The notes under the pieces were generated by a model that had not been told where the DNA came from, searched no databases, and saw nothing but the letters and a program-made list of their open reading frames with translations. The translations under genes and the position numbers were made by a program. 64,000 bases of DNA from an uncultured Mycoplasmatota bacterium. Lineage in GTDB: Bacteria; Bacillota_I; Bacilli_A; RF39; UBA660. How positions within the stretch are numbered: the first letter of the stretch is position 1; each line of letters starts with the position of its first letter. The DNA lies in contig URPE01000003.1 of the NCBI GenBank assembly GCA_900549625.1, positions 23,107 through 87,106 on the forward strand. The letters are read 5' to 3'. Positions 10,307 to 57,140 of this stretch are shown here, one piece after another.

Positions 10307-10324
10307 TGTCTACAATAGTAGACA
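10307..10324. promoter_or_regulatory. 18-bp palindrome, copy 2
   Basis: Identical sequence, between the T4CP stop (10346) and the RBS of the pilin-like gene (start 10284). Confidence 0.6.
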
Positions 10325-23087: not shown

Positions 23088-23107
23088 TCAATACTCCTTT
23101 CATAATA

Positions 23108-27569: not shown

Positions 27570-28721
27570 CTACTTCTTTCTTATAGATAAAACAGCAGGA
27601 TTTACTGTTCCTTTTTCATCAGCATCTTCGATTCCATATTTTTTATTCCAATGTTTTCTATATTCTTCACCTTGTTTTGAAAAATGTGATAATGCGTTTG
27701 CTGTAGCACCAGCCATAAAACCACTTAATCCTAACTCTTCATCATAAACTTGTTGTTCTGCTTCTTCAAAAGAAATACCTTCTTCCATTTTTTTCATCAT
27801 AGATATAGTTGCTTTTACAACAAATACTGAATAACCATCATTACTATTATTATCAGCAAATTGTAACCACTCTTCTGCTGTTTCTGGCTTAACTAATGTT
27901 AATCCTTCCCTCATTAAAGTATATTTCATTTTTTTAGCCTCAGCATCCCCTTTTTCTTTTGCTTCAGCCCATGCTTTATCTTGTTGTTCTTTTTCAGCTT
28001 GTTCAGCATCTACTATTCTATCACCAAATATTAATCTTTTAGAAGCAAATATATCTTCAGCTTTTCTTCTATCATATTCAGGTTCAATAAATGGATTTGA
28101 ATATAATACCTCACCATCTTTTGAAGTTATATCAGAAATTGCAGCTCCATATCCAACAAATGGTATACCACTATATCCAATTTCTACATTTATAAAATCA
28201 GTTACATTCTTTAATTCAGCTGTTTCTTCTTGCTTAACACCATACCACCATCCTGTGTATGATACATCTTCTCCAATATGTTCTCTTAATTTTTCAAACA
28301 TAGCTTTTGCTTTTGACTCTTTGTCTTGTTCTTTTTGAGCTATAAGTTCATCAAAAGTCATATCTCCTTCTTGCATTGGTAAAAATGATCCTGCTTGAGT
28401 ATGACAAACATATTGATAACCATTTCCTTCCATGTTACTAATTAGTATTCTATAATCTGGATTATTTCCATACTGTGCTTTAACTTCATCTAAACTTAAT
28501 CTCTTACCATAATAAATCCATTTTGAAAAATTTGATTTTTCTCCATCAAAACTTTTTTCACCATCTACAACAAATTCTTTGTCATAAAAACGAAAGCCTT
28601 GCATTTTACCATCATTTTCAATTTTCATTGGATCTCTTTCTTCAACTTCTGAAATTGAAGATTCACTAAATAATACTCCTCTGTAAATTTTTTCAACATA
28701 ACTTTTCTTTACTTTTTCCAT
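27570..28721 (-). CDS. Hypothetical protein (first gene of cassette A)
   Basis: 383-aa ORF with RBS AAGGGGGA. No motif recognised. Confidence 0.55.
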   Translation of the reverse strand: MEKVKKSYVEKIYRGVLFSESSISEVEERDPMKIENDGKMQGFRFYDKEFVVDGEKSFDGEKSNFSKWIYYGKRLSLDEVKAQYGNNPDYRILISNMEGNGYQYVCHTQAGSFLPMQEGDMTFDELIAQKEQDKESKAKAMFEKLREHIGEDVSYTGWWYGVKQEETAELKNVTDFINVEIGYSGIPFVGYGAAISDITSKDGEVLYSNPFIEPEYDRRKAEDIFASKRLIFGDRIVDAEQAEKEQQDKAWAEAKEKGDAEAKKMKYTLMREGLTLVKPETAEEWLQFADNNSNDGYSVFVVKATISMMKKMEEGISFEEAEQQVYDEELGLSGFMAGATANALSHFSKQGEEYRKHWNKKYGIEDADEKGTVNPAVLSIRKK

Positions 28722-28747
28722 ATCAATATTTCCCCCTTTTGCAGTCG

Positions 28748-28918
28748 CAAAGTGTAATACTATAAGAAAAAGTAATATCTATTTGCTATTTCATTAGTAT
28801 TTTAATATTGTTTTTTTAATATGATTAAAAAACATATATGGTCAAATTTGACAATTGCTCATTTTTATGTTAGAATACAAGCCATATCAAGCAGAAAATC
28901 TCAAAGTATTACACTTTG
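28748..28918 (+). promoter_or_regulatory. Candidate invertible promoter, switch A. The promoter currently faces away from gene 27570-28721.
   Basis: IR CAAAGTGTAATACT at 28748-28761, with its exact reverse complement at 28905-28918. Between them, on the plus strand, are TTGACA (28848-53), a 17-nt spacer and TGtTAGAAT (-10 at 28871-76). The right IR is part of the hairpin TCTCAAAGT-ATTAC-ACTTTGAGA, followed by TTTTATTTTT. Confidence 0.6.
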
Positions 28919-28923
28919 AGATT

Positions 28924-29811
28924 TTATTTTTGCAATTTTTTTATGTGCTCTAATTCAACCTTTTCACCTGTAAATTTGTTAATATAATCAAACATAGAAT
29001 TTGCATCATCAATAATATCATATCCTTGCACACCCATTTCTTCAGGGCGACAAATTACAATATCATTTTCAGCAAGAGAAATTACTTTTCTAATTGTATA
29101 GTCATCACAGGTTCTACCATAGCCACTTGTCCAAGCACTAGTTATATCTGGAGTCTGTTCCATTAATCTAAATACTAATCTTCTAAAAAATGATGGATGA
29201 GAAAACGGAAAAAACAATTTTTGTATATTAAGCCTTTCTCCACTCTTTTTTAGATTCAATTTAACATAATGTATTTGATTATATTCACTAGACATAGTAA
29301 AAACATTTAATCCTACACTAAATCCCATATTCTCTAAAATTTCAACAATACTTAATGTGATCGCACCACGATTAAAAATTTCGTTTGATGATGCCATTGC
29401 CAAATTAGCTGCATTAAAGTATATATCTATATGTTGGCGTTTTGGATATTGTCTATTTAACATAGAAAGTGGGTTACCTTCTAAATATGCTTTAACATCT
29501 GGAGCATAACCGACATAAAAATTATATTGTTTGCTTTTTTTTCTAGATAATTTTATATACTTTTCTAAGGTATTTTTTAATTCAACAAGTTTCTCAAAAT
29601 TGTCATGATAACCATACTTACACAATTCCTTTGCTTCTTCTAAAGATTGTGTTTTACAAAAATCATAATCTCCTGTTTCACTTGATAAATTTCTATATCC
29701 CCATACTCCACTATTTATTGGTGCATTCTCAATATAATCAAGAAATTCTGCTATGGAATCAAAATCATATTCCATAATATCATAATCATCTTTTTTATAA
29801 TACTTATACAT
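28924..29811 (-). CDS. Hypothetical protein, partner of the AAA ATPase
   Basis: 295-aa ORF that begins 1 nt after the ATPase stop. No motif recognised. Confidence 0.5.
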   Translation of the reverse strand: MYKYYKKDDYDIMEYDFDSIAEFLDYIENAPINSGVWGYRNLSSETGDYDFCKTQSLEEAKELCKYGYHDNFEKLVELKNTLEKYIKLSRKKSKQYNFYVGYAPDVKAYLEGNPLSMLNRQYPKRQHIDIYFNAANLAMASSNEIFNRGAITLSIVEILENMGFSVGLNVFTMSSEYNQIHYVKLNLKKSGERLNIQKLFFPFSHPSFFRRLVFRLMEQTPDITSAWTSGYGRTCDDYTIRKVISLAENDIVICRPEEMGVQGYDIIDDANSMFDYINKFTGEKVELEHIKKLQK

Positions 29812-29812
29812 A

Positions 29813-31558
29813 TTATCTACTCAATCTTAAACGCTTAATACCATCATAGTATTTATTGTCAGAACTTATATTTTGCATATTACCAATTATTGTATTCACA
29901 TCATCTTGTCCCAAATTTTTTACAACATTAGATGTTAATGTATCATTAACAGGTATTCCGTTTATTTCTTTCTTATATACTTTGCCAATACCACGAGTGG
30001 AAACAATGTGAGGTATTTTTGATTGATATACTGCATTTCTAAATGCCCACATAAATTGTAAAACTTCATCATTTGGATATAACGCTTTTTCTAAATTTGT
30101 ATCATAATCAAAGAATATGTTATCAAATCTATCTAGTGTTGCTCCATCTAGTGCATTTCTTCCTACATATTGTAAGTCTGCACCTTTTCCCCATGTATTT
30201 GCTGCTGCAATTATTCTAAAATCAGGATGCCTATCAATTGTTTCGTGTGGAAAAGCCATATATCCATTAGCAAGTGCTGAATTTATAACAATAAGTGCTG
30301 AGGGATCAGAATTATCTATTTCATCTAAGAAGAATATTCCACCATTTTTAAATGCTTTATAAAATTCTGTATCTCTATAATTACCACCTGCGTCTATAAA
30401 GCCAGTTAATTTAAACTCATTTGAAGCATTATTGGTATAATACATATGTTGTCCCAAAGCGTCAGCCACTTGTGATATAGCAACATTTTTACCACTTCCT
30501 GCTGGACCAATTAACATAATCGGTTCATCTAATTGTACCTGTGATAAAATTTGCTCAAATTTTTCATGATAGAATCCACCTTTAGTTTGTCCTAATACAG
30601 TATCTTTTAATTTAATAATATGAACAACTGGTACATCTATTCTACTGGCATATTCTGAAAGTTTTTCGTCAAATAATTCATTTAATTTATCAGTTATTTC
30701 ATGTTCTAGACTAAATTCTTGAAGTGTATTCTTAATTATTTGCAATATTTGTTTCCTTGTTTCAGTATCTAACTCATTCAAAATAAAACTACTTACTTTT
30801 TGTTGTGGATCTCCAGAAGATAGATATTCTTCAATATTTTCTTCTATTTTAGTTCTTATAGCTTCATCTGTAACTTGAACTAATAATGCATTTAATCCAT
30901 CAATTATTGAATCAGCATTTTGTTTTGTTTTTTTAATTAATACTGGATCTTTTCCTTTTTCTACTTTATCACCATCAATTGTGAAAAGTTCTCCATTTTT
31001 CATATATGTGTTTTCATCCATTTCATGAACTTCTTCACAAAATTGTTGTAAAATATCTGCATCATTTGAAAACATTATTTCGTTATTTCTTTTTGTATAT
31101 CCATAATATAAATGAGTATATTTACTATTAGGTTCTGTTACACCTGCAATAATGTCTTCACTATTATTGTCATATATAACTGAACAAAAGTGCATATATT
31201 GACTCAATTTTTTAAACATATTTTCTCTGCTATCAGCATATAAACAGTTGGTAATTCTTTGATACCTATCAGAATCATCAATACCATATTTTGAAAAATT
31301 TCTACATGCTCTTTCTACTTCATTTTGATTATATCCATTTACTGATAAAATTCCAGTCCTTGAATCATAATGTGGATCTCTATCTTCTACATAATTATCA
31401 TAAATTATTTTAGCAAAAATTAAATCATTAGCAGTTTTATATTTTACCGTATAATTACTTGGGCAAATTCTATCTAATGCTCTATAAATATCATTTTCTT
31501 CATATTCCTTTCCTTTATAGGCAATAAAAATTTGTCCACTTTTTTCTGTATTTTCCAT
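29813..31558 (-). CDS. AAA+ ATPase (AAA_5 / MoxR-McrB-like C-terminal domain) with an unknown ~330-aa N-terminal region
   Basis: Walker A (LIGPAGSGKN) and Walker B (GIFFLDEIDN), plus an arginine-finger-like region GRNALDGATLDRF. RBS GGGGGAAAA. Confidence 0.7.
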   Translation of the reverse strand: MENTEKSGQIFIAYKGKEYEENDIYRALDRICPSNYTVKYKTANDLIFAKIIYDNYVEDRDPHYDSRTGILSVNGYNQNEVERACRNFSKYGIDDSDRYQRITNCLYADSRENMFKKLSQYMHFCSVIYDNNSEDIIAGVTEPNSKYTHLYYGYTKRNNEIMFSNDADILQQFCEEVHEMDENTYMKNGELFTIDGDKVEKGKDPVLIKKTKQNADSIIDGLNALLVQVTDEAIRTKIEENIEEYLSSGDPQQKVSSFILNELDTETRKQILQIIKNTLQEFSLEHEITDKLNELFDEKLSEYASRIDVPVVHIIKLKDTVLGQTKGGFYHEKFEQILSQVQLDEPIMLIGPAGSGKNVAISQVADALGQHMYYTNNASNEFKLTGFIDAGGNYRDTEFYKAFKNGGIFFLDEIDNSDPSALIVINSALANGYMAFPHETIDRHPDFRIIAAANTWGKGADLQYVGRNALDGATLDRFDNIFFDYDTNLEKALYPNDEVLQFMWAFRNAVYQSKIPHIVSTRGIGKVYKKEINGIPVNDTLTSNVVKNLGQDDVNTIIGNMQNISSDNKYYDGIKRLRLSR

Positions 31559-31578
31559 ATTTTCCCCCTAACAATCTC

Positions 31579-31735
31579 AAAGTATGATACTTAAAGAAAA
31601 TCTTTAGAAACATAGACTTTATATATTAAGAAAATATATATGACCAAAAACTTTAACCTTTGAGAATTATTGACAAATAAAAAAAATATGGTATTATATA
31701 TTGCAGTCAAAAAAAGTCCCAAAGTATCATACTTT
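31579..31735 (+). promoter_or_regulatory. Candidate invertible promoter, switch B. The promoter faces away from gene 29813-31558.
   Basis: IR AAAGTATGATACTT at 31579-31592, with its reverse complement at 31722-31735. Plus strand: TTGACA (31670-75), a 16-nt spacer and TGgTATTAT (-10 at 31692-97). The right IR hairpin is followed by TTTCTTTTTTT. Confidence 0.6.
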
Positions 31736-31753
31736 AAGACTTTCTTTTTTTAA

Positions 31754-32215
31754 TTAAATTGATCTTTTATAACTTTTTTCTTGTTCCATTTTTTCATGAA
31801 TTTTTGGAGCAACAACTTCCTTATTAGCTCTAATATACTCATCCCAGTTTTTGTGAGTTGGTCCAAATTCTTCTTCATAAGAAGGAACTCCCTCAACTTT
31901 AACTGAATCATCTAAAAATGGTATTGCATAACATAATCCTAAATTTCCTTGAATTTCTTCCTGAGTATAAGCACCACATCTTAATGCCATTAATGTTCTG
32001 TTATACTTTCCCATATCCTTATTGCTACAATCACTATATAGCATCCAAATTTTTCCACTTCTAATATCCAAAGAATCAAGTAGTAAAATATCTAATAATC
32101 CTTTTGGATTTTGTAACATTTGCATTAAAACTGTTAACGCACCTGGATTTCCTTCAGACATGACCATCATCATATCCATCATATTCATATCTCCTGTTAT
32201 CTTTTCATTTCCCAT
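31754..32215 (-). CDS. Hypothetical protein (cassette C)
   Basis: 153-aa ORF with a Met-rich N-terminus. RBS AAGGGGGA. No motif recognised. Confidence 0.5.
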   Translation of the reverse strand: MGNEKITGDMNMMDMMMVMSEGNPGALTVLMQMLQNPKGLLDILLLDSLDIRSGKIWMLYSDCSNKDMGKYNRTLMALRCGAYTQEEIQGNLGLCYAIPFLDDSVKVEGVPSYEEEFGPTHKNWDEYIRANKEVVAPKIHEKMEQEKSYKRSI

Positions 32216-32240
32216 CTATAATTCCCCCTTTAACTATCTT

Positions 32241-32407
32241 AAAGTTAAAAACTAAAAGAATTATAAAGAAATAGTTCTATTTTATTAAATATACATAAAA
32301 AAAGAATATAAGAGGTTTATATTCTTTTTTGGTCAAATTTGACAATTGCTCATTTTTATGCTAGAATACAGCACATATCAACGAGTTATCTCAAAGTTTT
32401 TAACTTT
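32241..32407 (+). promoter_or_regulatory. Candidate invertible promoter, switch C. The promoter faces away from gene 31754-32215.
   Basis: IR AAAGTTAAAAACT at 32241-32253, with its reverse complement at 32395-32407. Plus strand: TTGACA (32339-44), a 17-nt spacer and TGcTAGAAT (-10 at 32362-67). About 60 nt around the promoter are nearly identical to switch A. The right IR hairpin is followed by TTTTTTT. Confidence 0.6.
32296..32330. terminator. Bidirectional terminator-like hairpin inside switch C
   Basis: AAGAATATA-agaggtt-TATATTCTT, flanked by an A-run on the left and a T-run on the right. Confidence 0.5.
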
Positions 32408-32416
32408 GAGATTTTT

Positions 32417-33772
32417 TTATCTTCCATATCTTTTATTAAATTTTTCTATCTGTGATAATGGTCTATTAGTCTTTCTTAAAACTTTTTCTGAATCTGTATT
32501 TTGTTCCAAACCTTGTCTATAAGTTTCAACATTTCTTATTTCATCATAACTAACAGTTCTTCCACTTAATAAATCAAATATTGATTCTCCTAATACGACA
32601 TCTTGTTCTCCGAAATATAAATGTTTTATTACCGAATTTGCTATATAGCCTTTAGAAAAATAGACATCTAATTCTAAAGCTGTAGGCATTGGTTGATTTA
32701 TATTTGATAGTGTTGGAATAGTAATATTCAAAGAATTATTTTTTATTTCTGTTGAATATTTATGTGAATGACCATGTAATATTATTGGTGCTGTTGTTTG
32801 ACGCATTCCACCAGCTTCAATATGATGATACAAATGAATTTTGTCATTTTTCAAATTAATTCCAGTATTGTTATAGCCCCCAATAACAATATCGTGTCTA
32901 AAATTATTACACATTTCTATTATATCCAAAGAGGCTGTGTTAAAGGCACTTATATCATGATCTCCAGCAACACTAAATGTTAAAATACTTTTATCTTGAG
33001 GATAATTTTTTATAAAATACTCTATTTGTTCATATAAATCAGATATTTTTTGTGTTCCTCTAGTAAATGTTCCATCTATAAGATCTCCACCACACAAAAT
33101 AATATTTATACCATTCTTTATACAATAATTATAAGCACGATCTATAAGATCAATTCTTTCTAATTCATTTCCAAAATGTAAATCTGATATTAATAAAAAT
33201 TTCATACTATTTTCATTTGTATCAGTAATAATAGTTCTATCTTGTTTAGCATCCATATAATTTTTTAAATCTTGCATTGTTGAAACATTACTATACTTTA
33301 TAGAACCATCAGAATAATATTTTCTACTATGTCGTATACCTCTATTTTTTAATTTTAATAATTCATCATATAATTGGCTAGATGAAATATTAAGACTCTC
33401 ACATATTTCCCTATTATTTTTTCCTACTTTCAATAATTGCAATAATTGAGCCGAATAATCAACAACTTCTATTTCTGGTTTTTGTTGTACCAATCTATTA
33501 TCTTGTTCTACTGACTTAGGCAAATCTACTGAATCAGTATTCTCAGAATCTTTAGAAAGTAATCTTTTCATCTTAGGAACTATAGTTCCATAATACTTTT
33601 CACTATTTTCCTTACTCCAATTCTTTTGTGGTGATGGATTATGTAAATCATTTCCAAATCTGGATCTGATAATTAACTTTTCATCAATAGACAATCCATA
33701 TATCATATCATCAATTTGCTTTTCAGTATAATCACTAAAATATTCATATACTGTTTGTAATTTTCTTCCCAT
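32417..33772 (-). CDS. Metallophosphoesterase (calcineurin-like) fused to an N-terminal HTH / sigma-region-4-like region (cassette D)
   Basis: Motifs LLISDLHFGN, GGDLIDG, VAGDHD and HGHSH. The N-terminus has IYGLSIDEKLIIRSRFG and NNREICESLNISSSQLYDELLKLKNRG. Confidence 0.7.
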   Translation of the reverse strand: MGRKLQTVYEYFSDYTEKQIDDMIYGLSIDEKLIIRSRFGNDLHNPSPQKNWSKENSEKYYGTIVPKMKRLLSKDSENTDSVDLPKSVEQDNRLVQQKPEIEVVDYSAQLLQLLKVGKNNREICESLNISSSQLYDELLKLKNRGIRHSRKYYSDGSIKYSNVSTMQDLKNYMDAKQDRTIITDTNENSMKFLLISDLHFGNELERIDLIDRAYNYCIKNGINIILCGGDLIDGTFTRGTQKISDLYEQIEYFIKNYPQDKSILTFSVAGDHDISAFNTASLDIIEMCNNFRHDIVIGGYNNTGINLKNDKIHLYHHIEAGGMRQTTAPIILHGHSHKYSTEIKNNSLNITIPTLSNINQPMPTALELDVYFSKGYIANSVIKHLYFGEQDVVLGESIFDLLSGRTVSYDEIRNVETYRQGLEQNTDSEKVLRKTNRPLSQIEKFNKRYGR

Positions 33773-33796
33773 AATAACCCCCTTCGAATGTTTCTT

Positions 33797-33963
33797 AAAG
33801 TTTAAAACTAAATGAAATATTAGAATTTGGGTTTTATTATCGAAGTTTTATACTATATTTTTTCAATTATATATTGTTCCAATTTTGTCAGATTTGACAA
33901 AATTATACTTATATGATAGTATATACGCTATGTTTACGGATGAATCTCAAAGTTTTAAACTTT
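33797..33963 (+). promoter_or_regulatory. Candidate invertible promoter, switch D. The promoter faces away from gene 32417-33772.
   Basis: IR AAAGTTTAAAACT at 33797-33809, with its reverse complement at 33951-33963. Plus strand: TTGACA (33894-99), a 17-nt spacer and TGaTAGTAT (-10 at 33917-22). Confidence 0.55.
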
Positions 33964-33979
33964 GAGAAAAAAATAAATC

Positions 33980-34462
33980 TCAACTATTGGGATTTATTTT
34001 TTTTGTTAACTTTTTAGGAAGATTGTCGGTTGTATCATATAAAGCTTGATTTAGTATATTAATATCAAAATCAAAATCATTATATCCTTGCAAACATGTA
34101 GATACATATTTTTTTGATGGAATATGATAATTATAACTTTTATTCATTATATAAATAAGAGCTTTTTTCTTTTTTCCTTCTACTTGTATTGGAATATAAA
34201 ATTTAGAATATGAGTTAGGATAACCTTCATAATCATCTAAAGAAAGAATATCAAAGTATGAAACTTCGAATAATCCTAATGGTACTTCTGATCCTTTAGA
34301 TTTTTCTATAGTTAAATATGCAAAATTGTCAGCTAATCCTTTATACACTAATCTATAATCTTTTAAATTCATTTTGCCTATCGGCTTTGCTGTTGGACAC
34401 CTATATTTCATTTGTTCCAAATTCAGATTACTTCCATACGCCAAATAATATTTTTTAAACAT
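33980..34462 (-). CDS. Gamma-glutamylcyclotransferase (AIG2/GGCT-like)
   Basis: YLAYGSNLNLEQMKYRCP N-terminal signature and DDYEGYPNSY. The ATG at 34462 has an AGGTG RBS, whereas the longer ORF start at 34516 overlaps the amidoligase gene. Confidence 0.7.
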   Translation of the reverse strand: MFKKYYLAYGSNLNLEQMKYRCPTAKPIGKMNLKDYRLVYKGLADNFAYLTIEKSKGSEVPLGLFEVSYFDILSLDDYEGYPNSYSKFYIPIQVEGKKKKALIYIMNKSYNYHIPSKKYVSTCLQGYNDFDFDINILNQALYDTTDNLPKKLTKKINPNS

Positions 34463-34472
34463 ATTATCACAC

Positions 34473-35471
34473 CTACTTAATAAATTTCTTAGCCCTTGCA
34501 GCTGTTTTAATACCATAATTTTCTTGAAAATCCTTTAAATATTGTCTTAAAAAATACATTTTATCTACATTATTATCAAATACTAAATCAACAAATTCTA
34601 GTGCATTCTTTAAATTAACTTCATTATATAAAAATTCATTACCTGAATATGATAAATATTCATGAGTAAGCTTATAATCTAAAAAATCTTCATCCATAGC
34701 TTTATCCCTAGATGACAATAACATCTTTGATAAAGTATTAATATTATTTTGCCATACTACTTCATTTGTTGTTGCGTTTGGGCTTCTAAATTCCAGTGTA
34801 TTTTTACCATATCTATACCATGGATCACAAAAATCAACATTACAAAAGTTCAAGGCTGCATATCTTTCATTGGTTTGTAAATTCCAGCGAATATCAGATA
34901 TTGAATTTGCCTTACTTATATCAGACATTCTATTATAAATTAAATCTGCTGTTGGTGGAGCATATTTAAATAACTTTTTTCTACCACTAATTTTATCTCC
35001 ATATATAAATCTAAACAAAACATTTTCATAAGCCGTATATAATTTGAGAAAACATTTCCATGCTTCTACATCTTCTCCTAATATACTTGCACCAATATGA
35101 ATATGCCCACCTGCATTATGCAATGTATCTGCTTTTCTTTTTGAAAGATGTTCACAAACTTTCTTTAGTTCTTTCCAATACCTAATATTATCTGACATAA
35201 CAGGTGATGTAATTTCGCCACCAGAACTTAATGAACCATCACTTTTTGAATTCCAATCTCTTAGATTTTTTGCTATAAAGTTGTCTGTTAACGATTTTAA
35301 AATACCTTCATACTCTATTTCGATTCCAAATGTTACATCATTAGGCAAATTTAATGTATCTCTATATTCTAAAAAATAACGGTTAGTTTCTACCAATAAA
35401 TTTTGTAAATCTACTCCTCTTAAAAATGAAAAATTATCATTTCTTTTTTGATTCATAAATGTATTATTCAT
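34473..35471 (-). CDS. Amidoligase-family enzyme (glutamine-synthetase-like fold, Amidoligase_2 type)
   Basis: Motifs FGIEIEYEG, SDGSL..GGEITSP and AGGHIHIG. Linkage to GGCT matches the described amidoligase neighbourhoods on mobile elements. Confidence 0.6.
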   Translation of the reverse strand: MNNTFMNQKRNDNFSFLRGVDLQNLLVETNRYFLEYRDTLNLPNDVTFGIEIEYEGILKSLTDNFIAKNLRDWNSKSDGSLSSGGEITSPVMSDNIRYWKELKKVCEHLSKRKADTLHNAGGHIHIGASILGEDVEAWKCFLKLYTAYENVLFRFIYGDKISGRKKLFKYAPPTADLIYNRMSDISKANSISDIRWNLQTNERYAALNFCNVDFCDPWYRYGKNTLEFRSPNATTNEVVWQNNINTLSKMLLSSRDKAMDEDFLDYKLTHEYLSYSGNEFLYNEVNLKNALEFVDLVFDNNVDKMYFLRQYLKDFQENYGIKTAARAKKFIK

Positions 35472-35484
35472 TTTACTATCACCC

Positions 35485-36339
35485 TTATATTCTTCTTAAT
35501 TTATAAGAATATCCATCAATACTACTATTATTATCATTGTTTAGCATTGACAAATTTTCTTGTTTCATTTTTAAAATTTTTTTCATTGTATCTAACTCTT
35601 CTTTATTTATTTTTCTAAAAGAAGGTTCATATTCTCTCAATTTATCTCTCATATATGTCTTTACAAATATTTTTTCTAAAAGTCTAACATTATTACCATA
35701 GGATAATACTAAAACTATATACCATAAAGAATGCCAAAAATTTTCACTTTTTGTTTCTAATCTTGTAATAGTTTCTTCTTCAGATTCTGAATGATCAATC
35801 ACAATTATTGCATCAGAATTATATATTTGATCTTCTGGATTTAAAGCGTTTTTCTTTACTGTTTTTATATCAGTTATGACTAAAGCATTATCTATATCAT
35901 CTTTTGTCATTTCTAGAATCTTCTCTTTATTTTCTAAATCAATATCATCATTCAATCTATATGAAGTAACAGTTCTTTCATAAAGACCTTGTTCATTTAC
36001 AATCCATCCAGTTGAATATTCTATTAATTCATCATCATAATCGAAATCATAAGATAAGTGTTCAAGATGAATTCCACTAGAAGTGTCTATAGTTTCAATA
36101 CCAGCTTTTTCAACAATTTCATCTACACGAAATGGTGCATTTCCTTTTGATGTTTGTGCATTAGCAATAATCATTGCTACTATAATAAACGGAAGAGCAT
36201 AATCTACTGCTATACCACTTTTTATTAACGATCTCACTACTGCATTACGAATATTATATAATTTTCTATGTTCTATTTTGTTTTGCAATCTATTAGCATC
36301 TTTTGTTAGTTTTTTCATTAACTCATTATTATCTATCAT
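35485..36339 (-). CDS. Two-TM membrane protein (paralog of 36329-37219)
   Basis: Coiled-coil N-terminus, then TM, a ~150-aa loop and a second TM. Shares the PF(H/R)xDEI motif after TM1 with the upstream gene. The ATG at 36339 has a GAAGGG RBS. Confidence 0.5.
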   Translation of the reverse strand: MIDNNELMKKLTKDANRLQNKIEHRKLYNIRNAVVRSLIKSGIAVDYALPFIIVAMIIANAQTSKGNAPFRVDEIVEKAGIETIDTSSGIHLEHLSYDFDYDDELIEYSTGWIVNEQGLYERTVTSYRLNDDIDLENKEKILEMTKDDIDNALVITDIKTVKKNALNPEDQIYNSDAIIVIDHSESEEETITRLETKSENFWHSLWYIVLVLSYGNNVRLLEKIFVKTYMRDKLREYEPSFRKINKEELDTMKKILKMKQENLSMLNNDNNSSIDGYSYKLRRI

Positions 36340-37219
36340 TGTTTTTACCCTTCTTTGTTCTTGAAAGAGATAAAATTTTTTCATTTGTTAATGCTAATTC
36401 TTCTTGCATTGGTTTGATTGCCTTAATTCTATAATTATAATCATTATTAGTACGCTTTAATTCCCATAAATATTCAAAATCCCTGAAATAAGCAATAGTT
36501 CCACCTATTCCTAGTCCAAGAATAAGCTCAACAATAGTAATAACAACATTTTTTAAATCTGTTTCATTATATTTTAGAGTGTCATTTTTATCTAACATGT
36601 GCAAACTAGCTTCAAAAAAATAGTCCATTTTTTCTGTTTCATCAATGCTATTAACTGTTTGTTTCTCCTCTTTATAATCCTTTAGATTTTCTTCTATATA
36701 TGAATAATCCTCTTCTAAAACAGCATTAAATAATTCTAATGAATTTAATTTATCTATATCATATTCTCTTTTATAACGAGTATACTGACTATTCTCATAT
36801 TTCCATGGAGTATATATAGTTAATTCATTTGATGGTAAATTGTCGTCAAGCAACCCATTTGTTCTATATGATTCATCCATAGTTACATAGCCATTTGTTT
36901 GATAATCTAAATCATATAATTTATATTTAGTAATTTCATCAGTATGAAATGGTAAGCCTCCACCAAACATTTTAAATACGCCAACAGTTAATCCTGCTGT
37001 AATTACAAAAGGTGCAACAAAATTACAAGTATTACCAAATATTTTTAAATTCCTTATATTTAGTTGTTTAAAATTTTCTACTCTTTGCTCTGCAATTTGC
37101 TTTTCTAATTGAATTGTTTTTTCTCTTAAATCTTGAAGTTCTTTAATTTGACTTTTTCTTTCTTTTATTCTTCTTTGCTCTGATTGTTGTTTTTGTTTTC
37201 TAGTTTTTCGATTGCTCAT
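36329..37219 (-). CDS. Two-TM membrane protein (first gene of cassette E)
   Basis: The ATG at 37219 (MSNRKTRK...) has RBS AAGGGGGA. The ORF-track start at 37243 is a non-ATG codon inside the IR. Confidence 0.5.
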   Translation of the reverse strand: MSNRKTRKQKQQSEQRRIKERKSQIKELQDLREKTIQLEKQIAEQRVENFKQLNIRNLKIFGNTCNFVAPFVITAGLTVGVFKMFGGGLPFHTDEITKYKLYDLDYQTNGYVTMDESYRTNGLLDDNLPSNELTIYTPWKYENSQYTRYKREYDIDKLNSLELFNAVLEEDYSYIEENLKDYKEEKQTVNSIDETEKMDYFFEASLHMLDKNDTLKYNETDLKNVVITIVELILGLGIGGTIAYFRDFEYLWELKRTNNDYNYRIKAIKPMQEELALTNEKILSLSRTKKGKNNDR

Positions 37220-37242
37220 TTTAAGTCCCCCTTTTATTCTCA

Positions 37243-37407
37243 AAGTGCATTACTTTATGATAATCGCTTTGAATGCACTATATAATATCATAAATTCATA
37301 AAAAGTCAAGTTTTGGAAGAAACATTATGATTATTGAAACTGGTCAGCTGAAAAGAAAATCCCCTTTTTTATGTGGTATATGAATCTGTTCTCAAAGTAA
37401 TGCACTT
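37243..37407 (-). promoter_or_regulatory. Candidate invertible promoter, switch E. The promoter faces INTO the operon 37219-33980 (ON-like orientation).
   Basis: IR AAGTGCATTACTTT at 37243-37256, with its reverse complement at 37394-37407. Minus strand: TTGACT (37309-04), a 16-nt spacer and TGaTATTAT (-10 at 37287-82). The spacing (84 nt, then promoter, then 25 nt) mirrors switches A-D. Confidence 0.6.
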
Positions 37408-37420
37408 AAAGTAATTATTA

Positions 37421-37460
37421 AAAGAAAAATGAGCATAGTTAGAGTAAATCCAACTATGCT
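37421..37460 (-). terminator. Rho-independent terminator of the recombinase gene
   Basis: Minus strand: AGCATAGTT, an 11-nt loop and AACTATGCT, followed by CATTTTTCTTT. Starts 1 nt after the stop codon. Confidence 0.65.
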
Positions 37461-38555
37461 TTATTTGTAAAATGGTTTTAATTGATTCATCATTAAAACT
37501 TTATTTTCATAATTTGGGTGAACATATCTTTCTAATGTTATTTTGACGCTTGAGTGTCCCAATATTTCACTTAATGTTTTAGGATCACATCCGTTTTCAA
37601 TACATCTTGTTGCAAAAGTATGTCTTAATGCGTGAAAATTATACTTTTCTAATTCAATAGAGGTAAGGATTTTTTTATATCTGTTAAAAAAAGTTCTTGA
37701 TTCAACAAATTTTTCTGTTCCAGATATTAAAAATGTATTTGGTGTTGCATCAACAGATAATTCTTTTAGTGTAGGAATAATAAAATCTGGTATTGGTATT
37801 TCTCTTATTGATGATGCAGATTTTGGTTCATCAATAATAACAATAGTTTTTTTCTTAGGGTTCTCTTCTGGATTTTTAATTCTTACTAAAGTTTTCTTTA
37901 TATTTATTTTTTTATTATTTAAATCAATATTTTTCCATTGGAGAGCACATAATTCACCAATTCTCAATCCAGTATATAAACATAGATAAATACCAAAAGT
38001 TGTTTCATTTAGATTAGACATCAATTCTTTTTCTAGTATTAATTGTTCTTCCTTCTTTAAAATTTGTATTTCTGTTTTTGGTACTTTTGGCATAGGAATT
38101 TTTATATTAATATCCCCTGTTTTCAAAATTTGTTGTAATATTATTAATATATCTTTGACACTTTTAGCTGCCAATCCCTCATCAAGTAATTCAGCCGTAA
38201 ATTTATTTATAATATCTAGTGATATTGTTTTTTTCTTAACTTTTGCAAACTTAGGAATTATTCTTGATTTTAGAGTATATTGATAATTTGAAAAGGTCGA
38301 TTTTTTATTTTTAATTTTTGAATTGTTCATCCACAAATTAATATCATAACCAATATAATTTTTATCAAATATCAATAAATCATTATTTTGAAATAATTCT
38401 TCTATTTTGTTTTTGTAATTCTCAACTACTTCTTCCTCATTACTACCGTAAACAGATTTGTAATTAGATGTCCCATCATCCCTGTAACCATAATGAAATC
38501 TAATTTCAAACCTTCCATCCTTTCTCGAATAAATGTTTTCAATGTCTTCTTTCAT
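37461..38555 (-). CDS. Tyrosine site-specific recombinase (integrase/invertase family)
   Basis: Catalytic-domain motifs GLRIGELCALQWKNID and HALRHTFATRCIENG...LGHSSVKITLERYVH. The ATG at 38555 has an AAGGAGA RBS. Confidence 0.85.
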   Translation of the reverse strand: MKEDIENIYSRKDGRFEIRFHYGYRDDGTSNYKSVYGSNEEEVVENYKNKIEELFQNNDLLIFDKNYIGYDINLWMNNSKIKNKKSTFSNYQYTLKSRIIPKFAKVKKKTISLDIINKFTAELLDEGLAAKSVKDILIILQQILKTGDINIKIPMPKVPKTEIQILKKEEQLILEKELMSNLNETTFGIYLCLYTGLRIGELCALQWKNIDLNNKKINIKKTLVRIKNPEENPKKKTIVIIDEPKSASSIREIPIPDFIIPTLKELSVDATPNTFLISGTEKFVESRTFFNRYKKILTSIELEKYNFHALRHTFATRCIENGCDPKTLSEILGHSSVKITLERYVHPNYENKVLMMNQLKPFYK

Positions 38556-52393: not shown

Positions 52394-52411
52394 TGTCTAC
52401 AATAGTAGACA
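52394..52411. promoter_or_regulatory. 18-bp palindrome, copy 3
   Basis: Identical sequence, just upstream of the RBS of 52188-52379. Confidence 0.6.
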
Positions 52412-52502: not shown

Positions 52503-52520
52503 TGTCTACTATTGTAGACA
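52503..52520. promoter_or_regulatory. 18-bp palindrome, copy 4 (centre TATT on the plus strand)
   Basis: TGTCTACTATTGTAGACA, located 91 nt from copy 3. Confidence 0.6.
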
Positions 52521-53261: not shown

Positions 53262-53279
53262 TGTCTACTATTGTAGTCT
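53262..53279. promoter_or_regulatory. 18-bp palindrome, copy 5 (two mismatches in the right arm)
   Basis: TGTCTACTATTGTAGTCT, in the divergent intergenic region 53204-53375. Confidence 0.5.
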
Positions 53280-53375: not shown

Positions 53376-53774
53376 ATGAGTAATGAAGAAGCTTTAGCAT
53401 TAATAATCAAAAAATATTGTGTTGTTCATAATATCAGTTATTCAGAGTTTGCAAGAGAAACAGGAGTAAGTAGAGCTTATATCAATAGAATAATAAGCAA
53501 TAAATGTGGTAAATTTGGGATTTCATCAACTATAAAAGAATTGATTGCAAAAGGATTACATACCAGTATGCCACAATTAGAACAACAAATTGAACAATGC
53601 AAAAATAATAATGATGTAAAATTTGATGATGAAATTGCAAATACAATTTCAAGTATTGTTAATGAATTAAAAAAATATGATATAAATGATCTTGAAACTA
53701 TTCAAAGTATTATTTCTGAATCTAATTCTCAAAGATTAAAAATTATTTATAATCTTCTTAAAAATATGAAATGA
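53376..53774 (+). CDS. XRE-family HTH regulator (candidate master repressor of the element)
   Basis: HTH (ISYSEFARETGVSRAYINRIISN). Transcribed divergently from the minus-strand genes, with palindromes in its promoter. Confidence 0.7.
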   Translation: MSNEEALALIIKKYCVVHNISYSEFARETGVSRAYINRIISNKCGKFGISSTIKELIAKGLHTSMPQLEQQIEQCKNNNDVKFDDEIANTISSIVNELKKYDINDLETIQSIISESNSQRLKIIYNLLKNMK

Positions 53775-54688: not shown

Positions 54689-57112
54689 TTAATTGTTTTC
54701 TTTTTCTTCTAAATTTAATTCAATATTGTTTATCTTATAATCATTATCTTGAACATTAAGAATTAAATTTTCAATAAATAAAGTTGCTTTAAAATCTTTT
54801 ATAGAACTATTGATTGCATCTTTTAATTCTGGATTAACACTTACATCTAAGTTTTTAATTGGTGTCTTTAATGATAAATTATTATTTGATTTTTCACCTC
54901 TAGCTTGGCTTATTATTTCAATCATTAAATCACCATTTTTAACTTCAGACTCAAAATTAAATTCTAATGGTTTAATTTTTGTTAAATGAATTGACTTTTC
55001 ATCATGATATAATTCTTGATAAATTTCTTCTGTAATAAATGGGAAGAAAATGCTAAAATCTTGTAACAACTTATAAAGAATAGTATAAACTGTTTTTTGA
55101 CCAGAATATCTAGGAATATCCCCAAATTCTTCAGGTCTATATAATCTATGTTTTACTATTTCAATATAATTATCACAGAAATTCCAGAAGAATTTTTCTA
55201 AATGGTTAAGAGCAAGTCCTACTTCATAATCATCAAGGTATTTAATAAATCCCTTTTCCATTTCTTGAAAACTTCCTAGTATCCACTTATCTATGTATTC
55301 ATAATCATTAAAGTCTTTATCTTCATAATCTTGTAAGTGCATTTCAATAAATTTAGATACATTCCAAATTTTATTTACTAATTTTCTACCTCTTTGTAAT
55401 GTTTCTTCACTAAATACAATGTCTGTTCCTAGTCTTCCAGATCCTGCCCAATAACGAATTACATCAGCAGAATATTGTCCTATTAAATCAAGTGGATCAA
55501 CCTTGCTATTACCTTTAGATTTGCTAATTTTTTCGCCTTTACTTGCCATAACAAATCCAGAAATCATTACATTATCCCAAGGTCTTTGACCAAAGTGATA
55601 GAAGCTTTTTACTATTGTATAGAAATCCCATGTTCTAATGATTTCAGAAGCATTAGTTCTTAAACTCATTGGCTTTAAAATATCTTCATAATTTTCTTTT
55701 TCACCATATCTCATATTAATTAAAGGTGTAACAGAAGATGTTGCCCATGTATCCATTACATCCGTTTCTGGATTAAATTCAGTACATCCACATTTATGGC
55801 ATTTATCAACTGGTGGTTTATCAGATAATGGATTTACAGGTAAATCTTCTTTTCTTGCAAATATTGGTTCACCACAATCTTTACAATACCATACTGGAAA
55901 TGGAACACCAAAATATCTTTGCCTTGAAATACACCAATCCCATGCAACATTATTTACCCATTCATCATATCTATTATGCATGTGATCTGGATGCCATTTA
56001 ATTTCATTACCAATCTTGATAAAATCATCTTTATGACTCATTATATCAATAAACCATTGGTTCATAACTGAATATTCAACTTCTTTACCACATCTTTCGT
56101 GTGTTTGAACTTCATGTTCTAATTCTTCAACCTTAACAACATATCCACCAGCTTGTAAGTCTTCAATAATTTGTTTTCTAGCATCTTTTATCTTCATACC
56201 ACCGTAATTTGGTACTGAATCTATTATTCTTCCATCTGCTGTGAAAATATATTTTAATGGTAAATTATATTTTTTCCACCATTCAATATCTGTTTGATCT
56301 CCGAATGTACAGCACATAACTACTCCTGTACCTTTATCAATAGCGACTTTTTCATCTGACATAATAGGTACTTCTACATCAATTACTGGTATATGTGCAG
56401 TCTTTCCAATTAGATGCTTATGTTTCTCATCATTTGGATTAACAAATATACATACAATTGCTGGAATCAATTCAGGTCTTGTTGTAGCAATTGTAAAAGT
56501 TTCTCCATCTGTTGTTGAGTAATTAATATAATTAAATGTTGTTTTTATCGTTTTAGTTTCAAGTTCAGCTTGTGCAATTGAAGTTAAACATTCATTACAC
56601 CAAAGTGCTGGACTTTCCTTATGATAACAATGTCCCTTATCAATTAAATCTAGGAATGATAACTGACTAACTTTAATTGTTGATGGACTAACTGTTTTAA
56701 AATGAATATTCCAATCTGTACTTACTCCCATTTTACTAAATAAGTTTTGAAAATCTGCTTCATATTTATCAGTAGTTTCATAACAAAGTTTAGAGAATGC
56801 CTCTCTTCCAATTTCAGCTGCTTTTTTACCTTGTTCCTTTTCAACTAATCTTTCACTAGGCAAACCATTATCATCAAATCCAAATGGGTAAAAAACATTA
56901 TATCCTCTTATTCTTTTATATCTAGCCATCATTTCAGTTTGTGAATATGAAAATATATGACCAATATGAATATTACCACTTACTGTTGGTGGTGGGGTGT
57001 CAATAGAATAAACCTCCCTTTGATCTGGTTTAAATTCATAAACCTTATTTTCTTTCCAATATTCAAGCCATTTTTGCTCTTTCTCTTGAGCATTATATTT
57101 TTTATCTAACAT
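54689..57112 (-). CDS. valS: Valine--tRNA ligase, complete, of the non-bacterial (archaeal/actinobacterial-like) sequence type
   Basis: 807 aa with HIGH motif (SGNIHIGH), GFDDNGLPSE, WCISRQRYFGVPFPVWY and KMSKS motif (KISKSKGN). RBS GAGGAGAG. Confidence 0.8.
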   Translation of the reverse strand: MLDKKYNAQEKEQKWLEYWKENKVYEFKPDQREVYSIDTPPPTVSGNIHIGHIFSYSQTEMMARYKRIRGYNVFYPFGFDDNGLPSERLVEKEQGKKAAEIGREAFSKLCYETTDKYEADFQNLFSKMGVSTDWNIHFKTVSPSTIKVSQLSFLDLIDKGHCYHKESPALWCNECLTSIAQAELETKTIKTTFNYINYSTTDGETFTIATTRPELIPAIVCIFVNPNDEKHKHLIGKTAHIPVIDVEVPIMSDEKVAIDKGTGVVMCCTFGDQTDIEWWKKYNLPLKYIFTADGRIIDSVPNYGGMKIKDARKQIIEDLQAGGYVVKVEELEHEVQTHERCGKEVEYSVMNQWFIDIMSHKDDFIKIGNEIKWHPDHMHNRYDEWVNNVAWDWCISRQRYFGVPFPVWYCKDCGEPIFARKEDLPVNPLSDKPPVDKCHKCGCTEFNPETDVMDTWATSSVTPLINMRYGEKENYEDILKPMSLRTNASEIIRTWDFYTIVKSFYHFGQRPWDNVMISGFVMASKGEKISKSKGNSKVDPLDLIGQYSADVIRYWAGSGRLGTDIVFSEETLQRGRKLVNKIWNVSKFIEMHLQDYEDKDFNDYEYIDKWILGSFQEMEKGFIKYLDDYEVGLALNHLEKFFWNFCDNYIEIVKHRLYRPEEFGDIPRYSGQKTVYTILYKLLQDFSIFFPFITEEIYQELYHDEKSIHLTKIKPLEFNFESEVKNGDLMIEIISQARGEKSNNNLSLKTPIKNLDVSVNPELKDAINSSIKDFKATLFIENLILNVQDNDYKINNIELNLEEKENN

Positions 57113-57140
57113 ATCTATCTCTCCTCTACTTTTTTAAATT

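What the first reader, a model, noticed from the sequence alone, without database searches (positions are those of the whole stretch)
37461..38555. The tyrosine recombinase beside switch E is the candidate invertase, so it may not be the element's integrase
This is the only recombinase gene in 64 kb. It sits 54 nt from the outer IR of switch E and about 17 kb inside the element, not at an element end. Conjugation genes lie on one side, and regulatory and replication genes carrying the same 18-bp palindrome lie on the other.

Established: tyrosine recombinases encoded next to their targets drive promoter inversion (FimB/FimE; RecV in Clostridioides difficile).

Inference: this enzyme flips switches A-E, and the true integration function, if any, lies beyond the left window edge. 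At about 365 aa with an N-terminal extension it also resembles ordinary integrases, so a dual or purely integrative role cannot be excluded.
Basis: inference. Interest (0 to 1): 0.6.

Follow-up and report, generated by a model that had tools for sequence, protein, structure and literature searches.

The report
Recombinase that flips five promoter switches
This integrase-looking gene is most likely a DNA-flipping enzyme that turns five neighbouring gene sets on and off by inverting small promoter pieces, while a different enzyme at the far end of the 70-kb transferable element does the inserting.

Summary
Window 37461-38555(-) encodes an intact 364-aa tyrosine recombinase. It is the only tyrosine or serine recombinase in the window.

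It lies about 50 nt from the outermost of five promoter segments of about 165 bp each, site to site (A-E, 28.7-37.4 kb). Each is bracketed by inverted 23-bp sites, TCTCAAAGT-N5-ACTTTGAGA. The arms are shared by all five; the 5-nt spacer is specific to each switch.

The strongest promoter-like matches in the region lie inside the segments. A-D face away from their genes (OFF) and E faces its gene (ON).

Inversion is real in this family. Two public assemblies with an ~80% identical recombinase have colinear flanks (93% and 97.5% identity), but the 188-bp segment is reversed at 95% identity.

All 13 switch-linked homologues form one clade; none of 60 rows outside it has a switch.

The element's own integrase is almost certainly a large serine recombinase left of the window. 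It abuts the 3' half of a host valS gene that the ~70-kb conjugative element splits.

The enzyme has a Tn1549/lambda-type integrase fold, and the recombinase-plus-switch island also occurs in chromosomes. A second role in cassette or island movement therefore stays open.

It is a new variant of a known kind.

The parts
37461..38555 (-). Tyrosine recombinase, 364 aa, the candidate invertase
   Evidence: PF00589 3.3e-28 and PF14659. Catalytic R/H/R/H/Y are invariant. The AF2 model has an N-terminal 3-strand sheet plus helix, a core-binding domain and a catalytic domain. Best PDB match is Tn1549 Int.
37432..37460 (-). Terminator hairpin of the recombinase gene
   Evidence: 12-bp stem followed by a T run.
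37238..37412 (.). Switch E. Sites at 37238-37260 and 37390-37412, spacer GCATT/AATGC. Promoter on the - strand at 37309-37282, facing its gene (ON).
   Evidence: The orthologous switch is inverted between L037 and L038.
33980..37222 (-). Cargo of switch E: a 297-aa and a 299-aa protein of unknown function, an amidoligase_2 protein and a GGACT-family protein
   Evidence: RBS AAGGGGG precedes the ATG at 37222. The module is absent after the recombinase in L030, L031 and G019, and no homologue of it follows the recombinase in L037 or L038.
33793..33967 (.). Switch D. Sites at 33793-33815 and 33945-33967, spacer TTAAA/TTTAA. Promoter on the + strand at 33894-33922 (OFF).
32417..33772 (-). Cargo of switch D: a 451-aa calcineurin-like metallophosphoesterase
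   Evidence: PF00149 and PF12850. This is the commonest cargo behind the recombinase in relatives.
32237..32411 (.). Switch C. Sites at 32237-32259 and 32389-32411, spacer TAAAA/TTTTA. Promoter on the + strand at 32339-32367 (OFF).
   Evidence: The distal site scores as a terminator.
31754..32215 (-). Cargo of switch C: a 153-aa protein with no family match
   Evidence: A homologue sits behind the same switch type in L035.
31575..31739 (.). Switch B. Sites at 31575-31597 and 31717-31739, spacer ATGAT/ATCAT. Promoter on the + strand at 31670-31697 (OFF).
28924..31558 (-). Cargo of switch B: a 581-aa AAA_5 ATPase (CobS-like, phrog_249) and a 295-aa DUF7192 protein
   Evidence: The same pair sits behind a switch in L047.
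28745..28921 (.). Switch A. Sites at 28745-28767 and 28899-28921, spacer GTAAT/ATTAC. Promoter on the + strand at 28848-28876 (OFF).
   Evidence: The distal site scores as a terminator.
27570..28721 (-). Cargo of switch A: a 383-aa protein with a C-terminal Tad4 (Thoeris inhibitor) domain
   Evidence: PF25186 5.9e-20, 72 bits against a cut-off of 25.
54689..58025 (-). Right end of the conjugative element: the host valS 5' fragment (57141..58025), the junction at about 57.2 kb, and the element-borne complete valS (54689..57112)
   Evidence: This fixes the recombinase 18.7 kb inside the element.

Best explanation
The gene encodes a site-specific tyrosine recombinase that works as a local invertase.

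Proposed mechanism. The enzyme binds the shared 9-bp arms (TCTCAAAGT / ACTTTGAGA) of ten 23-bp sites arranged as five inverted pairs. It exchanges strands across the central region: N5 plus the invariant flanking T and A, possibly a 7-bp overlap. Each exchange reverses a promoter segment (about 165 bp site to site, about 130 bp between the sites).

- One orientation: a strong sigma-70-type promoter reads through the degenerate gene-proximal site into the cargo operon (ON).
- Other orientation: it fires about 25 nt into the perfect palindromic distal site. For A and C that site is followed by a T run and scores as a terminator (OFF).
- Because each switch has its own spacer, only the two sites of one switch share an overlap. 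The five switches could then flip independently without large inversions or deletions between them, giving up to 32 expression states.

The enzyme is not the integrase of the ~70-kb conjugative element. That job belongs to the large serine recombinase at the element's left end.

Shown: the site architecture, the promoter positions and orientations, inversion of an orthologous switch in nature, the clade-to-site linkage, and the element ends.

Inferred: that this enzyme is the catalyst, that it acts on all five switches, the 7-bp overlap, orthogonality through the spacers, and the terminator role of the distal site.
For: Sites
- Five IR pairs lie within 8.7 kb next to the gene. Genome-wide there is only one other, weak, pair in 1.26 Mb, and none in the direct-spacer control.
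- The spacers are reverse-complemented within each pair and differ between pairs.
- A logo of 54 sites from 27 switches gives TC[T/y][C/T]AAAGT-N5-ACTTT[A/G][A/T]GA. The T and A flanking N5 are invariant. There are 18 different spacers, and no locus repeats one.

Promoters
- The 11-of-12 extended -10 promoter matches of the 26.4-39.8 kb region include three inside switches A-C. D and E hold 10-of-12 matches with TG.
- A-D are antisense to the genes and E is sense.
- All 27 switches share one layout: site, AT-rich stretch, -35, -10, about 25 nt, near-perfect site.

Natural inversion
- L037 and L038 have colinear flanks at 93.3% and 97.5% identity.
- The 188-bp segment between them is inverted at 95.2% identity. 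Inner arms are swapped and outer arms retained.

Paired change
- The spacer of switch E is GCATT at both sites here and GTATT at both sites in L029.

Linkage
- All 13 switch-linked homologues fall in one clade (SH-aLRT 99). None of 60 rows outside it has a switch.

Not the ICE integrase
- Host-type valS is split into residues 2-278 (window 57141..58025) and 290-858 (C3:8758..10410).
- A Resolvase + Recombinase + Zn-ribbon protein is encoded directly next to the 3' half.
- The same 18-bp operator lies on both sides of the gene.

Precedent
- Invertase genes directly upstream of invertible promoters occur on Bacteroidales ICEs (PMC8748976).
Against: - No catalytic evidence exists. A trans-acting enzyme (the genome's two other ~305-aa tyrosine recombinases or its small serine recombinases) is not excluded.
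- No read-level data were available to show both orientations in this genome.
- Only one flipped pair was found among assemblies. Switch types A-D are OFF in every assembly seen.
- The protein looks like an integrase, not a short FimB/E-type invertase: phrog_1 integrase at 1e-52, Tn1549 Int as best structure, and an arm-binding-like N-domain. No arm-type sites were found in the switches.
- Three clade members (L048, L049, L050) have no detectable switch.
- Spacers of C and D differ at only one position, so orthogonality may be leaky.
Confidence: 0.8

Rival explanations
1. Dual role. Besides flipping the promoters, the same enzyme moves DNA. It would add, delete or exchange the switch-plus-cargo modules, or integrate the whole recombinase-plus-switch island into new sites, in an integron-like or small-island-like manner.
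For: - The island sits in unrelated contexts with the recombinase always at one edge: inside this ICE, and after serS (L035, L037), secA (L040), spoVAD (L029) and PBP5 (L043).
- Homology between the window and L029 (90% identity) starts about 160 nt upstream of the gene. It ends exactly at the distal site of switch C, where L029 keeps a lone site.
- Module order and content differ between loci, and the breakpoints fall at the sites.
- The proximal site of L037 has an E-type inner arm and spacer but a D-type outer arm.
- The fold is integrase-type, with an arm-binding-like domain.
Against: - No att-like direct repeats were found at the island ends.
- The empty serS-orf231 site (L138) is too diverged to define junctions.
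- No site-like sequence is present at the island's left boundary.
- Different spacers should disfavour recombination between switches.
- Mosaicism could come from homologous recombination in variable hotspots.
Confidence: 0.2
2. It is the integrase/excisionase of the conjugative element, or of a nested integrative element. The inverted repeats would then be incidental.
For: - Sequence and fold are closest to conjugative-transposon and phage integrases.
- NCBIfam places it in no invertase family.
Against: - The element ends are defined by the split valS, 18.7 kb and about 50 kb from the gene.
- A large serine recombinase sits at the left junction.
- The ICE operator palindrome lies on both sides of the gene.
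- No tRNA gene occurs in the window, and none of the repeat scans run for other purposes turned up att-like direct repeats around the gene.
- Thirteen of 13 orthologous loci carry the switch next to the gene.
Confidence: 0.03
3. The repeats are not recombination sites for this enzyme. They would be terminator or operator hairpins or long-range RNA stems, and the inversion seen between assemblies would be made by another recombinase or by rare hairpin-mediated rearrangement.
For: - Each site is itself a palindrome, and two distal sites score as intrinsic terminators.
- The host has other recombinases.
Against: - Hairpin loops need not be reverse complements of each other. Yet all 27 pairs have exactly reverse-complemented spacers, and the direct-spacer control gives none.
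- The inversion breakpoints fall inside the sites, with arm exchange.
- The odd 23-bp site with a 5-nt asymmetric centre does not fit the 2-bp core of serine invertases (established knowledge of Hin/Gin sites).
- The sites are restricted to genomes carrying this recombinase clade.
Confidence: 0.05

Closest known systems
Invertase plus invertible promoter units on Bacteroidales ICEs (IP-ARG and glycan loci; PMC8748976)
   Same: - A tyrosine-type invertase gene lies immediately upstream of one or two IR-flanked promoters.
- The unit is carried inside an integrative conjugative element that has a separate integrase.
- Cargo downstream is exchangeable.
   Different: - The hosts here are low-GC Bacilli/'Tenericutes'-type MAGs with sigma-70 -35/-10 promoters, not Bacteroides -33/-7 promoters.
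- Up to five switches form an array.
- The sites have shared palindromic arms plus a switch-specific 5-nt spacer.
- The cargo is phage/MGE-conflict-type genes rather than glycan or resistance genes.
- Relatedness of the enzymes was not tested here.
Mycoplasma penetrans mpl (P35) promoter inversions, with candidate recombinases MYPE2900 and MYPE8180 (Horino 2003, as described in PMC2268961)
   Same: - Many genes each have their own small invertible promoter and switch independently.
- The recombinase is a tyrosine recombinase of the lambda-integrase family.
- The host lineage is reduced-genome and low-GC.
   Different: - The mpl switches control surface lipoproteins scattered in chromosomal clusters.
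- The site sequences and the enzymes could not be compared, because the original paper is not held and no sequences were available.
- Details of the mpl repeats rest on my recollection only.
Clostridioides difficile RecV and its switches (PMC5386303, PMC5903667)
   Same: One tyrosine recombinase serves several short IR-flanked regulatory segments in a Firmicute.
   Different: - RecV acts in trans on dispersed switches whose IRs differ in sequence.
- Here the enzyme is adjacent to a tandem array with a common arm consensus.
E. coli fimS with FimB/FimE
   Same: A locally encoded tyrosine recombinase inverts a promoter segment next to its own gene.
   Different: - FimB and FimE are proteins of about 200 aa without arm-binding or SAM-like N-domains.
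- The NCBIfam invertase models score 25.8 and 20.7 bits against cut-offs of 222 and 221.
- fimS is a single switch.
Tn1549/Tn916 and lambda-type heterobivalent integrases (PDB 6emy, 1z1b)
   Same: - Best sequence and fold match: E 5e-23 by profile; Foldseek E 2e-14, TM 0.60/0.68.
- Three-domain architecture with an N-terminal sheet-plus-helix domain.
   Different: - Only about 21% identity.
- Those enzymes excise and integrate elements at their ends.
- This gene lies deep inside its element beside inverted, not direct, sites.
Engineered heterospecific lox/FRT sets (lox511, lox2272; FLEx designs)
   Same: The logic is the same: common recombinase-binding arms with different spacers give one enzyme several orthogonal inversion targets. 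This rests on established knowledge, not on a test here.
   Different: Those sets are man-made. Here the arrangement is natural, and its orthogonality is only inferred.

Membership tests
Tyrosine recombinase superfamily (Phage_integrase, PF00589) | Catalytic domain match above the Pfam cut-off, with the R..HxxR..H/W..Y residues present | tested here: met
   99 bits against a cut-off of 27.1. R198, H308, R311, H334 and Y344 are invariant in 30 homologues.
FimB/FimE-type DNA invertases (NCBIfam NF007371, NF007370) | Whole-protein score above the curated cut-off | tested here: not met
   25.8 and 20.7 bits against cut-offs of 222 and 221.
XerC/XerD/XerA/XerS chromosome-dimer resolvases | Score above the equivalog cut-offs | tested here: not met
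   Best is XerA at 89.6 bits against a cut-off of 220; XerC 56 against 335; XerD 48.7 against 330. The genome has two separate ~305-aa tyrosine recombinase ORFs on other contigs.
Heterobivalent (lambda/Tn916/Tn1549-type) integrases | Three-domain architecture: arm-binding N-domain, core-binding domain and catalytic domain | tested here: met
   The AF2 model (pLDDT 83.5) has strands at 8-10, 16-24 and 30-37 plus a helix at 40-56, followed by the helical core-binding and catalytic domains. Top Foldseek hits are Tn1549 Int and lambda Int.
Heterobivalent (lambda/Tn916/Tn1549-type) integrases | Gene at an element end beside direct att sites; catalyses integration and excision | tested here: not met
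   The gene lies 18.7 kb and about 50 kb from the element junctions in valS. A serine recombinase occupies the end. The adjacent sites are inverted. Catalysis is not testable here.
Invertible-promoter switch (inverton) with local invertase | Short segment flanked by inverted repeats, carrying a promoter, upstream of the regulated gene | tested here: met
   Five segments, each with a consensus-like promoter and an RBS plus ATG just beyond the proximal site.
Invertible-promoter switch (inverton) with local invertase | Both orientations exist in nature | tested here: met
   Met for an orthologous switch: L037 against L038, 188 bp inverted between colinear flanks. Not testable for this genome's own five switches, because no reads were available.
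Invertible-promoter switch (inverton) with local invertase | The adjacent recombinase catalyses the inversion | not testable with these tools
   Only co-occurrence is available: 13 of 13 loci, one clade.
Integron-like cassette platform | Recombinase-mediated capture or excision of cassettes at its sites | tested here: inconclusive
   Modules differ between loci, with breakpoints at the sites, and L029 has a lone terminal site. No circular intermediates or att duplications were seen.

The most novel reading that the evidence does not exclude
This is a portable multi-inverton cassette array. One integrase-type tyrosine recombinase would serve up to five orthogonal promoter switches. Their 23-bp sites share binding arms but carry switch-specific overlap spacers, a natural counterpart of heterospecific lox sites, and the sites double as bidirectional terminators. 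The same enzyme would also shuffle the switch-plus-cargo modules between ICEs and chromosomal hotspots. The result would be combinatorial, heritable ON/OFF states of phage- and MGE-conflict genes, including a Tad4-domain protein.
Probability: 0.3. Interest if true: 0.75.

Novelty: new variant of a known kind. Interest (0 to 1): 0.58.

Why it matters
1. It corrects an annotation habit. This family, found widely in gut and rumen metagenome assemblies, is labelled 'integrase' or 'site-specific integrase' at most. Its members would wrongly be used to call islands or element ends. Here the real ICE integrase is a serine recombinase 50 kb away.

2. The site design points to a simple natural rule for running several independent switches with one enzyme: common arms, a private 5-nt spacer, and a palindrome that can also terminate transcription. 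The rule is directly testable by spacer swaps and could be useful as a toolkit for low-GC bacteria.

3. The regulated cargo is typical of phage and mobile-element conflict islands: a Tad4-domain protein, a metallophosphoesterase, a CobS-like ATPase with DUF7192, and an amidoligase with GGACT. Phase-variable expression of such genes, both on an ICE and in chromosomes of reduced-genome gut Bacilli, would be a bet-hedging layer not yet described for them.

Tried and rejected
I could not fetch near-identical assemblies to look for flipped copies of switches A-E.
- Megablast of 27.5-38.6 kb against PLSDB plasmids gave no match.
- A DNA search of 100 relatives with the regulatory region 38.7-41.3 kb found no related ICE. 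The island's insertion point in the ICE could therefore not be defined.
- The single metagenome scan gave only three close loci.
- A viral-contig scan for the perfect site gave one chance hit inside a coding region.
- My first guess at promoters (TTGATA-17-TAAAAA, sense) in A and C was dropped. The tool found much better antisense matches.
- A single-strand promoter or ssi reading (leading-region Frpo-like) and a long-range RNA stem were considered. Both were set aside once a true inversion with arm exchange was seen.
- A search for arm-type sites inside the switches found only the -35 region conserved.
- PADLOC gave no defence-system match for the cargo.
- The four 153-aa ORFs of the window are not paralogues.
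- The Horino 2003 paper on M. penetrans is not held.
- No att repeats could be defined from the empty serS-orf231 site.
Full report
**The gene**

Window 37461..38555(-) is an open frame of 364 codons. It starts at an ATG behind a GAAAGGAG ribosome-binding site.
- It matches the Phage_integrase catalytic domain at 3.3e-28 and the SAM-like core-binding domain.
- In an alignment of 30 homologues, R198, H308, R311, H334 and Y344 are invariant.
- An AlphaFold model built on that alignment (mean pLDDT 83.5) shows a three-stranded sheet plus helix at residues 8-56. A helical core-binding domain and the catalytic domain follow.
- The best solved relatives are the Tn1549 conjugative-transposon integrase, then XerA and lambda Int. 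By profile the E-value is 5e-23. By Foldseek it is E 2e-14 with TM 0.60/0.68.
- NCBIfam places it in no curated family. The FimB/FimE invertase models score about 21-26 bits against cut-offs of about 220, and all Xer models fall far below their cut-offs.

**The switches**

Five intergenic regions on the gene-poor side of the recombinase each hold a pair of inverted 23-bp sites with about 130 bp between them (about 165 bp site to site).

| Switch | Proximal site | Distal site | Spacer |
|---|---|---|---|
| A | 28745-28767 | 28899-28921 | GTAAT |
| B | 31575-31597 | 31717-31739 | ATGAT |
| C | 32237-32259 | 32389-32411 | TAAAA |
| D | 33793-33815 | 33945-33967 | TTAAA |
| E | 37238-37260 | 37390-37412 | GCATT |

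- Every site has the form TCTCAAAGT-N5-ACTTTGAGA, that is, palindromic 9-bp arms around a 5-nt centre.
- The arms are shared by all ten sites. The centre is reverse-complemented between the two sites of a switch and differs between switches.
- A genome-wide scan of 1.26 Mb for such pairs returns these five plus one weak false positive. A control demanding direct-orientation spacers returns none.
- The outer site of E ends 48 nt from the recombinase stop codon, with the gene's own terminator hairpin in between.

**Promoters**

The consensus scan of 26.4-39.8 kb puts its best extended -10 matches inside the switches.
- A, + strand: TTGACA-17-TAGAAT, 28848-28876.
- B, + strand: 31670-31697.
- C, + strand: 32339-32367.
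- D, + strand: 33894-33922.
- E, - strand: TTGACT-16-TATTAT, 37309-37282.

All genes here are on the - strand. A-D therefore point away from their genes and E points at its gene.

In the OFF state, the promoter fires about 25 nt into the perfect palindromic distal site. For A and C that site is followed by a T run and scores as an intrinsic terminator. The gene-proximal site has a degenerate inner arm and is followed by AAAGGGGG and the ATG rather than by a T run.

Aligning 27 switches from this and related loci in promoter-forward orientation shows one common layout: site, AT-rich stretch, -35, -10, about 25 nt, near-perfect site. The -35 box is often embedded in the palindrome GGTCAAATTTGACA.

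**Relatives and a natural inversion**

The protein has thousands of homologues in metagenomes, named 'integrase' or 'site-specific integrase' at most. I fetched 6 metagenome loci and 80 genome loci.

Every homologue of at least about 52% identity with enough downstream DNA has the same kind of switch directly after its stop codon. The site consensus is the same and the spacers differ.

A logo of 54 sites gives TC[T/y][C/T]AAAGT-N5-ACTTT[A/G][A/T]GA.
- The T and A next to N5 are invariant. This would fit a 7-bp overlap as in lambda-type enzymes, but that is an inference.
- 18 different spacers occur in 27 switches, and no locus uses a spacer twice.

On a tree of 79 homologues, all 13 switch-linked proteins fall in one clade with SH-aLRT 99. 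That clade also holds 2 rows with too little DNA and 3 rows without a switch. None of the 60 other 'none' rows outside it has a switch.

Two species-level relatives, L037 and L038, have recombinases about 80% identical to ours. Their flanks are colinear at 93.3% and 97.5% identity.
- The 188-bp segment L037:11134-11321 equals L038:4556-4369 in reverse, at 95.2% identity.
- The outer arms stay in place and the inner arms are exchanged.
- The promoter faces the downstream metallophosphoesterase gene in L037 and faces away in L038.

This is the signature of conservative inversion at these sites.

There is also a paired change. The spacer of E is GCATT at both sites here and GTATT at both sites in L029, whose recombinase is 93% identical.

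**The element and its real integrase**

The window lies on a 92.7-kb contig (C3:23107-87106). The host-type valine-tRNA ligase gene is split.
- Residues 2-278 are encoded at window 57141..58025.
- Residues 290-858 are encoded at C3:8758..10410, left of the window.
- The two junctions share an imperfect ~17-nt stretch in the codons for GVVKITPAHD.
- An intact valS in a congener (L048) marks the empty site.

About 60 nt from the left junction lies a 547-aa Resolvase + Recombinase + Zn-ribbon protein, a large serine recombinase.

Between the valS halves, about 70 kb, lie:
- a relaxase and ArdC;
- a primase, a coupling protein, a VirB4-like ATPase, PrgI and a CHAP hydrolase;
- surface proteins and the switch array;
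- the tyrosine recombinase;
- regulators, a two-component/ABC module and further HTH proteins.

An 18-bp palindrome, TGTCTACAATAGTAGACA, occurs at 2452 and 10307 in the transfer region and at 52394 and 52503 in the regulatory region. The DNA on both sides of the tyrosine recombinase therefore belongs to one element.

The gene lies 18.7 kb from the right junction and about 50 kb from the left. The genome holds only two other tyrosine recombinases, both ~305-aa ORFs on other contigs.

**The island is modular and portable**

At protein level, the only parts of this contig shared with the related loci are the recombinase and the cargo modules. The modules occur in different orders and subsets.

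| Locus | Order of modules after the recombinase |
|---|---|
| Window | E (two unknowns, amidoligase, GGACT), D (metallophosphoesterase), C (153 aa), B (AAA_5 + DUF7192), A (Tad4-domain protein) |
| L035 | E, C, A |
| L037, L038, G019, L042 | metallophosphoesterase only |
| L044, L045, L046 | the Tad4-domain protein |
| L047 | AAA_5 + DUF7192 |

In those genomes the island sits after housekeeping genes: serS, secA, spoVAD and a PBP5-type carboxypeptidase.

Homology between the window and L029 ends exactly at the distal site of switch C, where L029 keeps a lone site. L037 ends in a decayed switch.

This suggests that modules are gained and lost at the sites. It leaves open that the enzyme also mediates such events. 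I found no att-type repeats, and no informative empty site, to test that.

**Cargo**

- The A gene has a C-terminal Tad4 (Thoeris inhibitor) domain at 72 bits.
- The others match phage or MGE accessory families: CobS-like phrog_249, DUF7192/phrog_1909, GGACT and amidoligase.
- None matches a PADLOC defence model.

Calling them anti-defence genes is an inference.

**What is known**

- Invertase genes directly upstream of invertible promoters, carried on ICEs with a separate integrase, are described in Bacteroidales (PMC8748976).
- One tyrosine recombinase serving several switches is known for RecV, which acts in trans on dispersed switches (PMC5903667).
- Many genes each with its own invertible promoter are known in M. 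penetrans (described in PMC2268961).

What I did not find described:
- this enzyme clade;
- the shared-arm, private-spacer site design that can double as a terminator;
- the tandem array of up to five;
- its portability.

The secA context resembles locus L040, but I did not establish that they are the same.

**Verdict**

The most likely function is a local invertase for five independent promoter switches (confidence about 0.8). It is not the ICE integrase (about 0.03). A possible additional role in cassette or island movement has a probability of about 0.2. It is a new variant of a known kind.

Noticed in passing
window 54689-58025 and C3:8758-12186 (L115): The ~70-kb conjugative element is inserted in the host valS, which I presume to be essential. 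It carries its own complete ValRS of a different lineage: 807 aa, NF009687 at 1001 bits, only 28-32% identical to the host fragments. That gene starts about 100 nt inside the right junction on the same strand, so the host valS promoter could read it. No other valS was found in the 90%-complete genome. It looks like an element that replaces the gene it destroys.
   Followed up: partly
window 2452-2469, 10307-10324, 52394-52411, 52503-52520 (degenerate copies at 53262 and 53305): The 18-bp palindrome TGTCTACAATAGTAGACA recurs in the transfer region and in the regulatory region next to a divergent HTH_3 repressor-like gene (53376..53774). It is probably the operator of the element's master repressor. 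There are 10 matches against 0.1 expected.
   Followed up: partly
window 28839-28854, 32330-32345, 33885-33900: A second palindrome, T[G/T]GTCA[A/G]ATTTGACAA, overlaps the -35 box of switches A, C and D, and of many switches in relatives. It could be an operator that adds conventional repression on top of inversion. It is absent from switch E.
   Followed up: partly
L029:16105-16140; L037:12660-12760: Lone or decayed sites mark the far end of the island in relatives. L029 has a single TCTCAAAGT-TAAAA-ACTTTGGGA site with a T run. L037 has a degenerate switch remnant. Modules seem to be lost at the sites.
   Followed up: partly
L030:3244-3672: A co-assembled metagenome contig holds only the last 143 codons of a 99% identical recombinase, behind unrelated sequence. 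The D-type switch follows directly. This is either a truncated gene or a chimeric contig.
   Followed up: partly
L035, L037 (after serS); L040 (after secA); L029 (after spoVAD); L043 (after a PBP5-type gene): The recombinase-plus-switch island sits directly downstream of housekeeping genes in other genomes. The serS-orf231 gap is a variable hotspot: it is empty in L138 and holds other small genes in L119.
   Followed up: partly
C3:18433-19380 and C3:19373-20317 (L115, L116): An ArdC-like anti-restriction protein (ArdcN plus a zincin peptidase domain) is followed by a 314-aa protein with a partial resolvase domain at its C-terminal end. This is a second, atypical serine-recombinase-like gene inside the element.
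   Followed up: no
window 19746-26443: Two proteins of about 1110 aa lie between the transfer genes and the switch array. One has six SpaA/prealbumin-fold domains and one has eleven Listeria-Bacteroides repeats. A sortase is encoded at C3:12444..13178.
   Followed up: no
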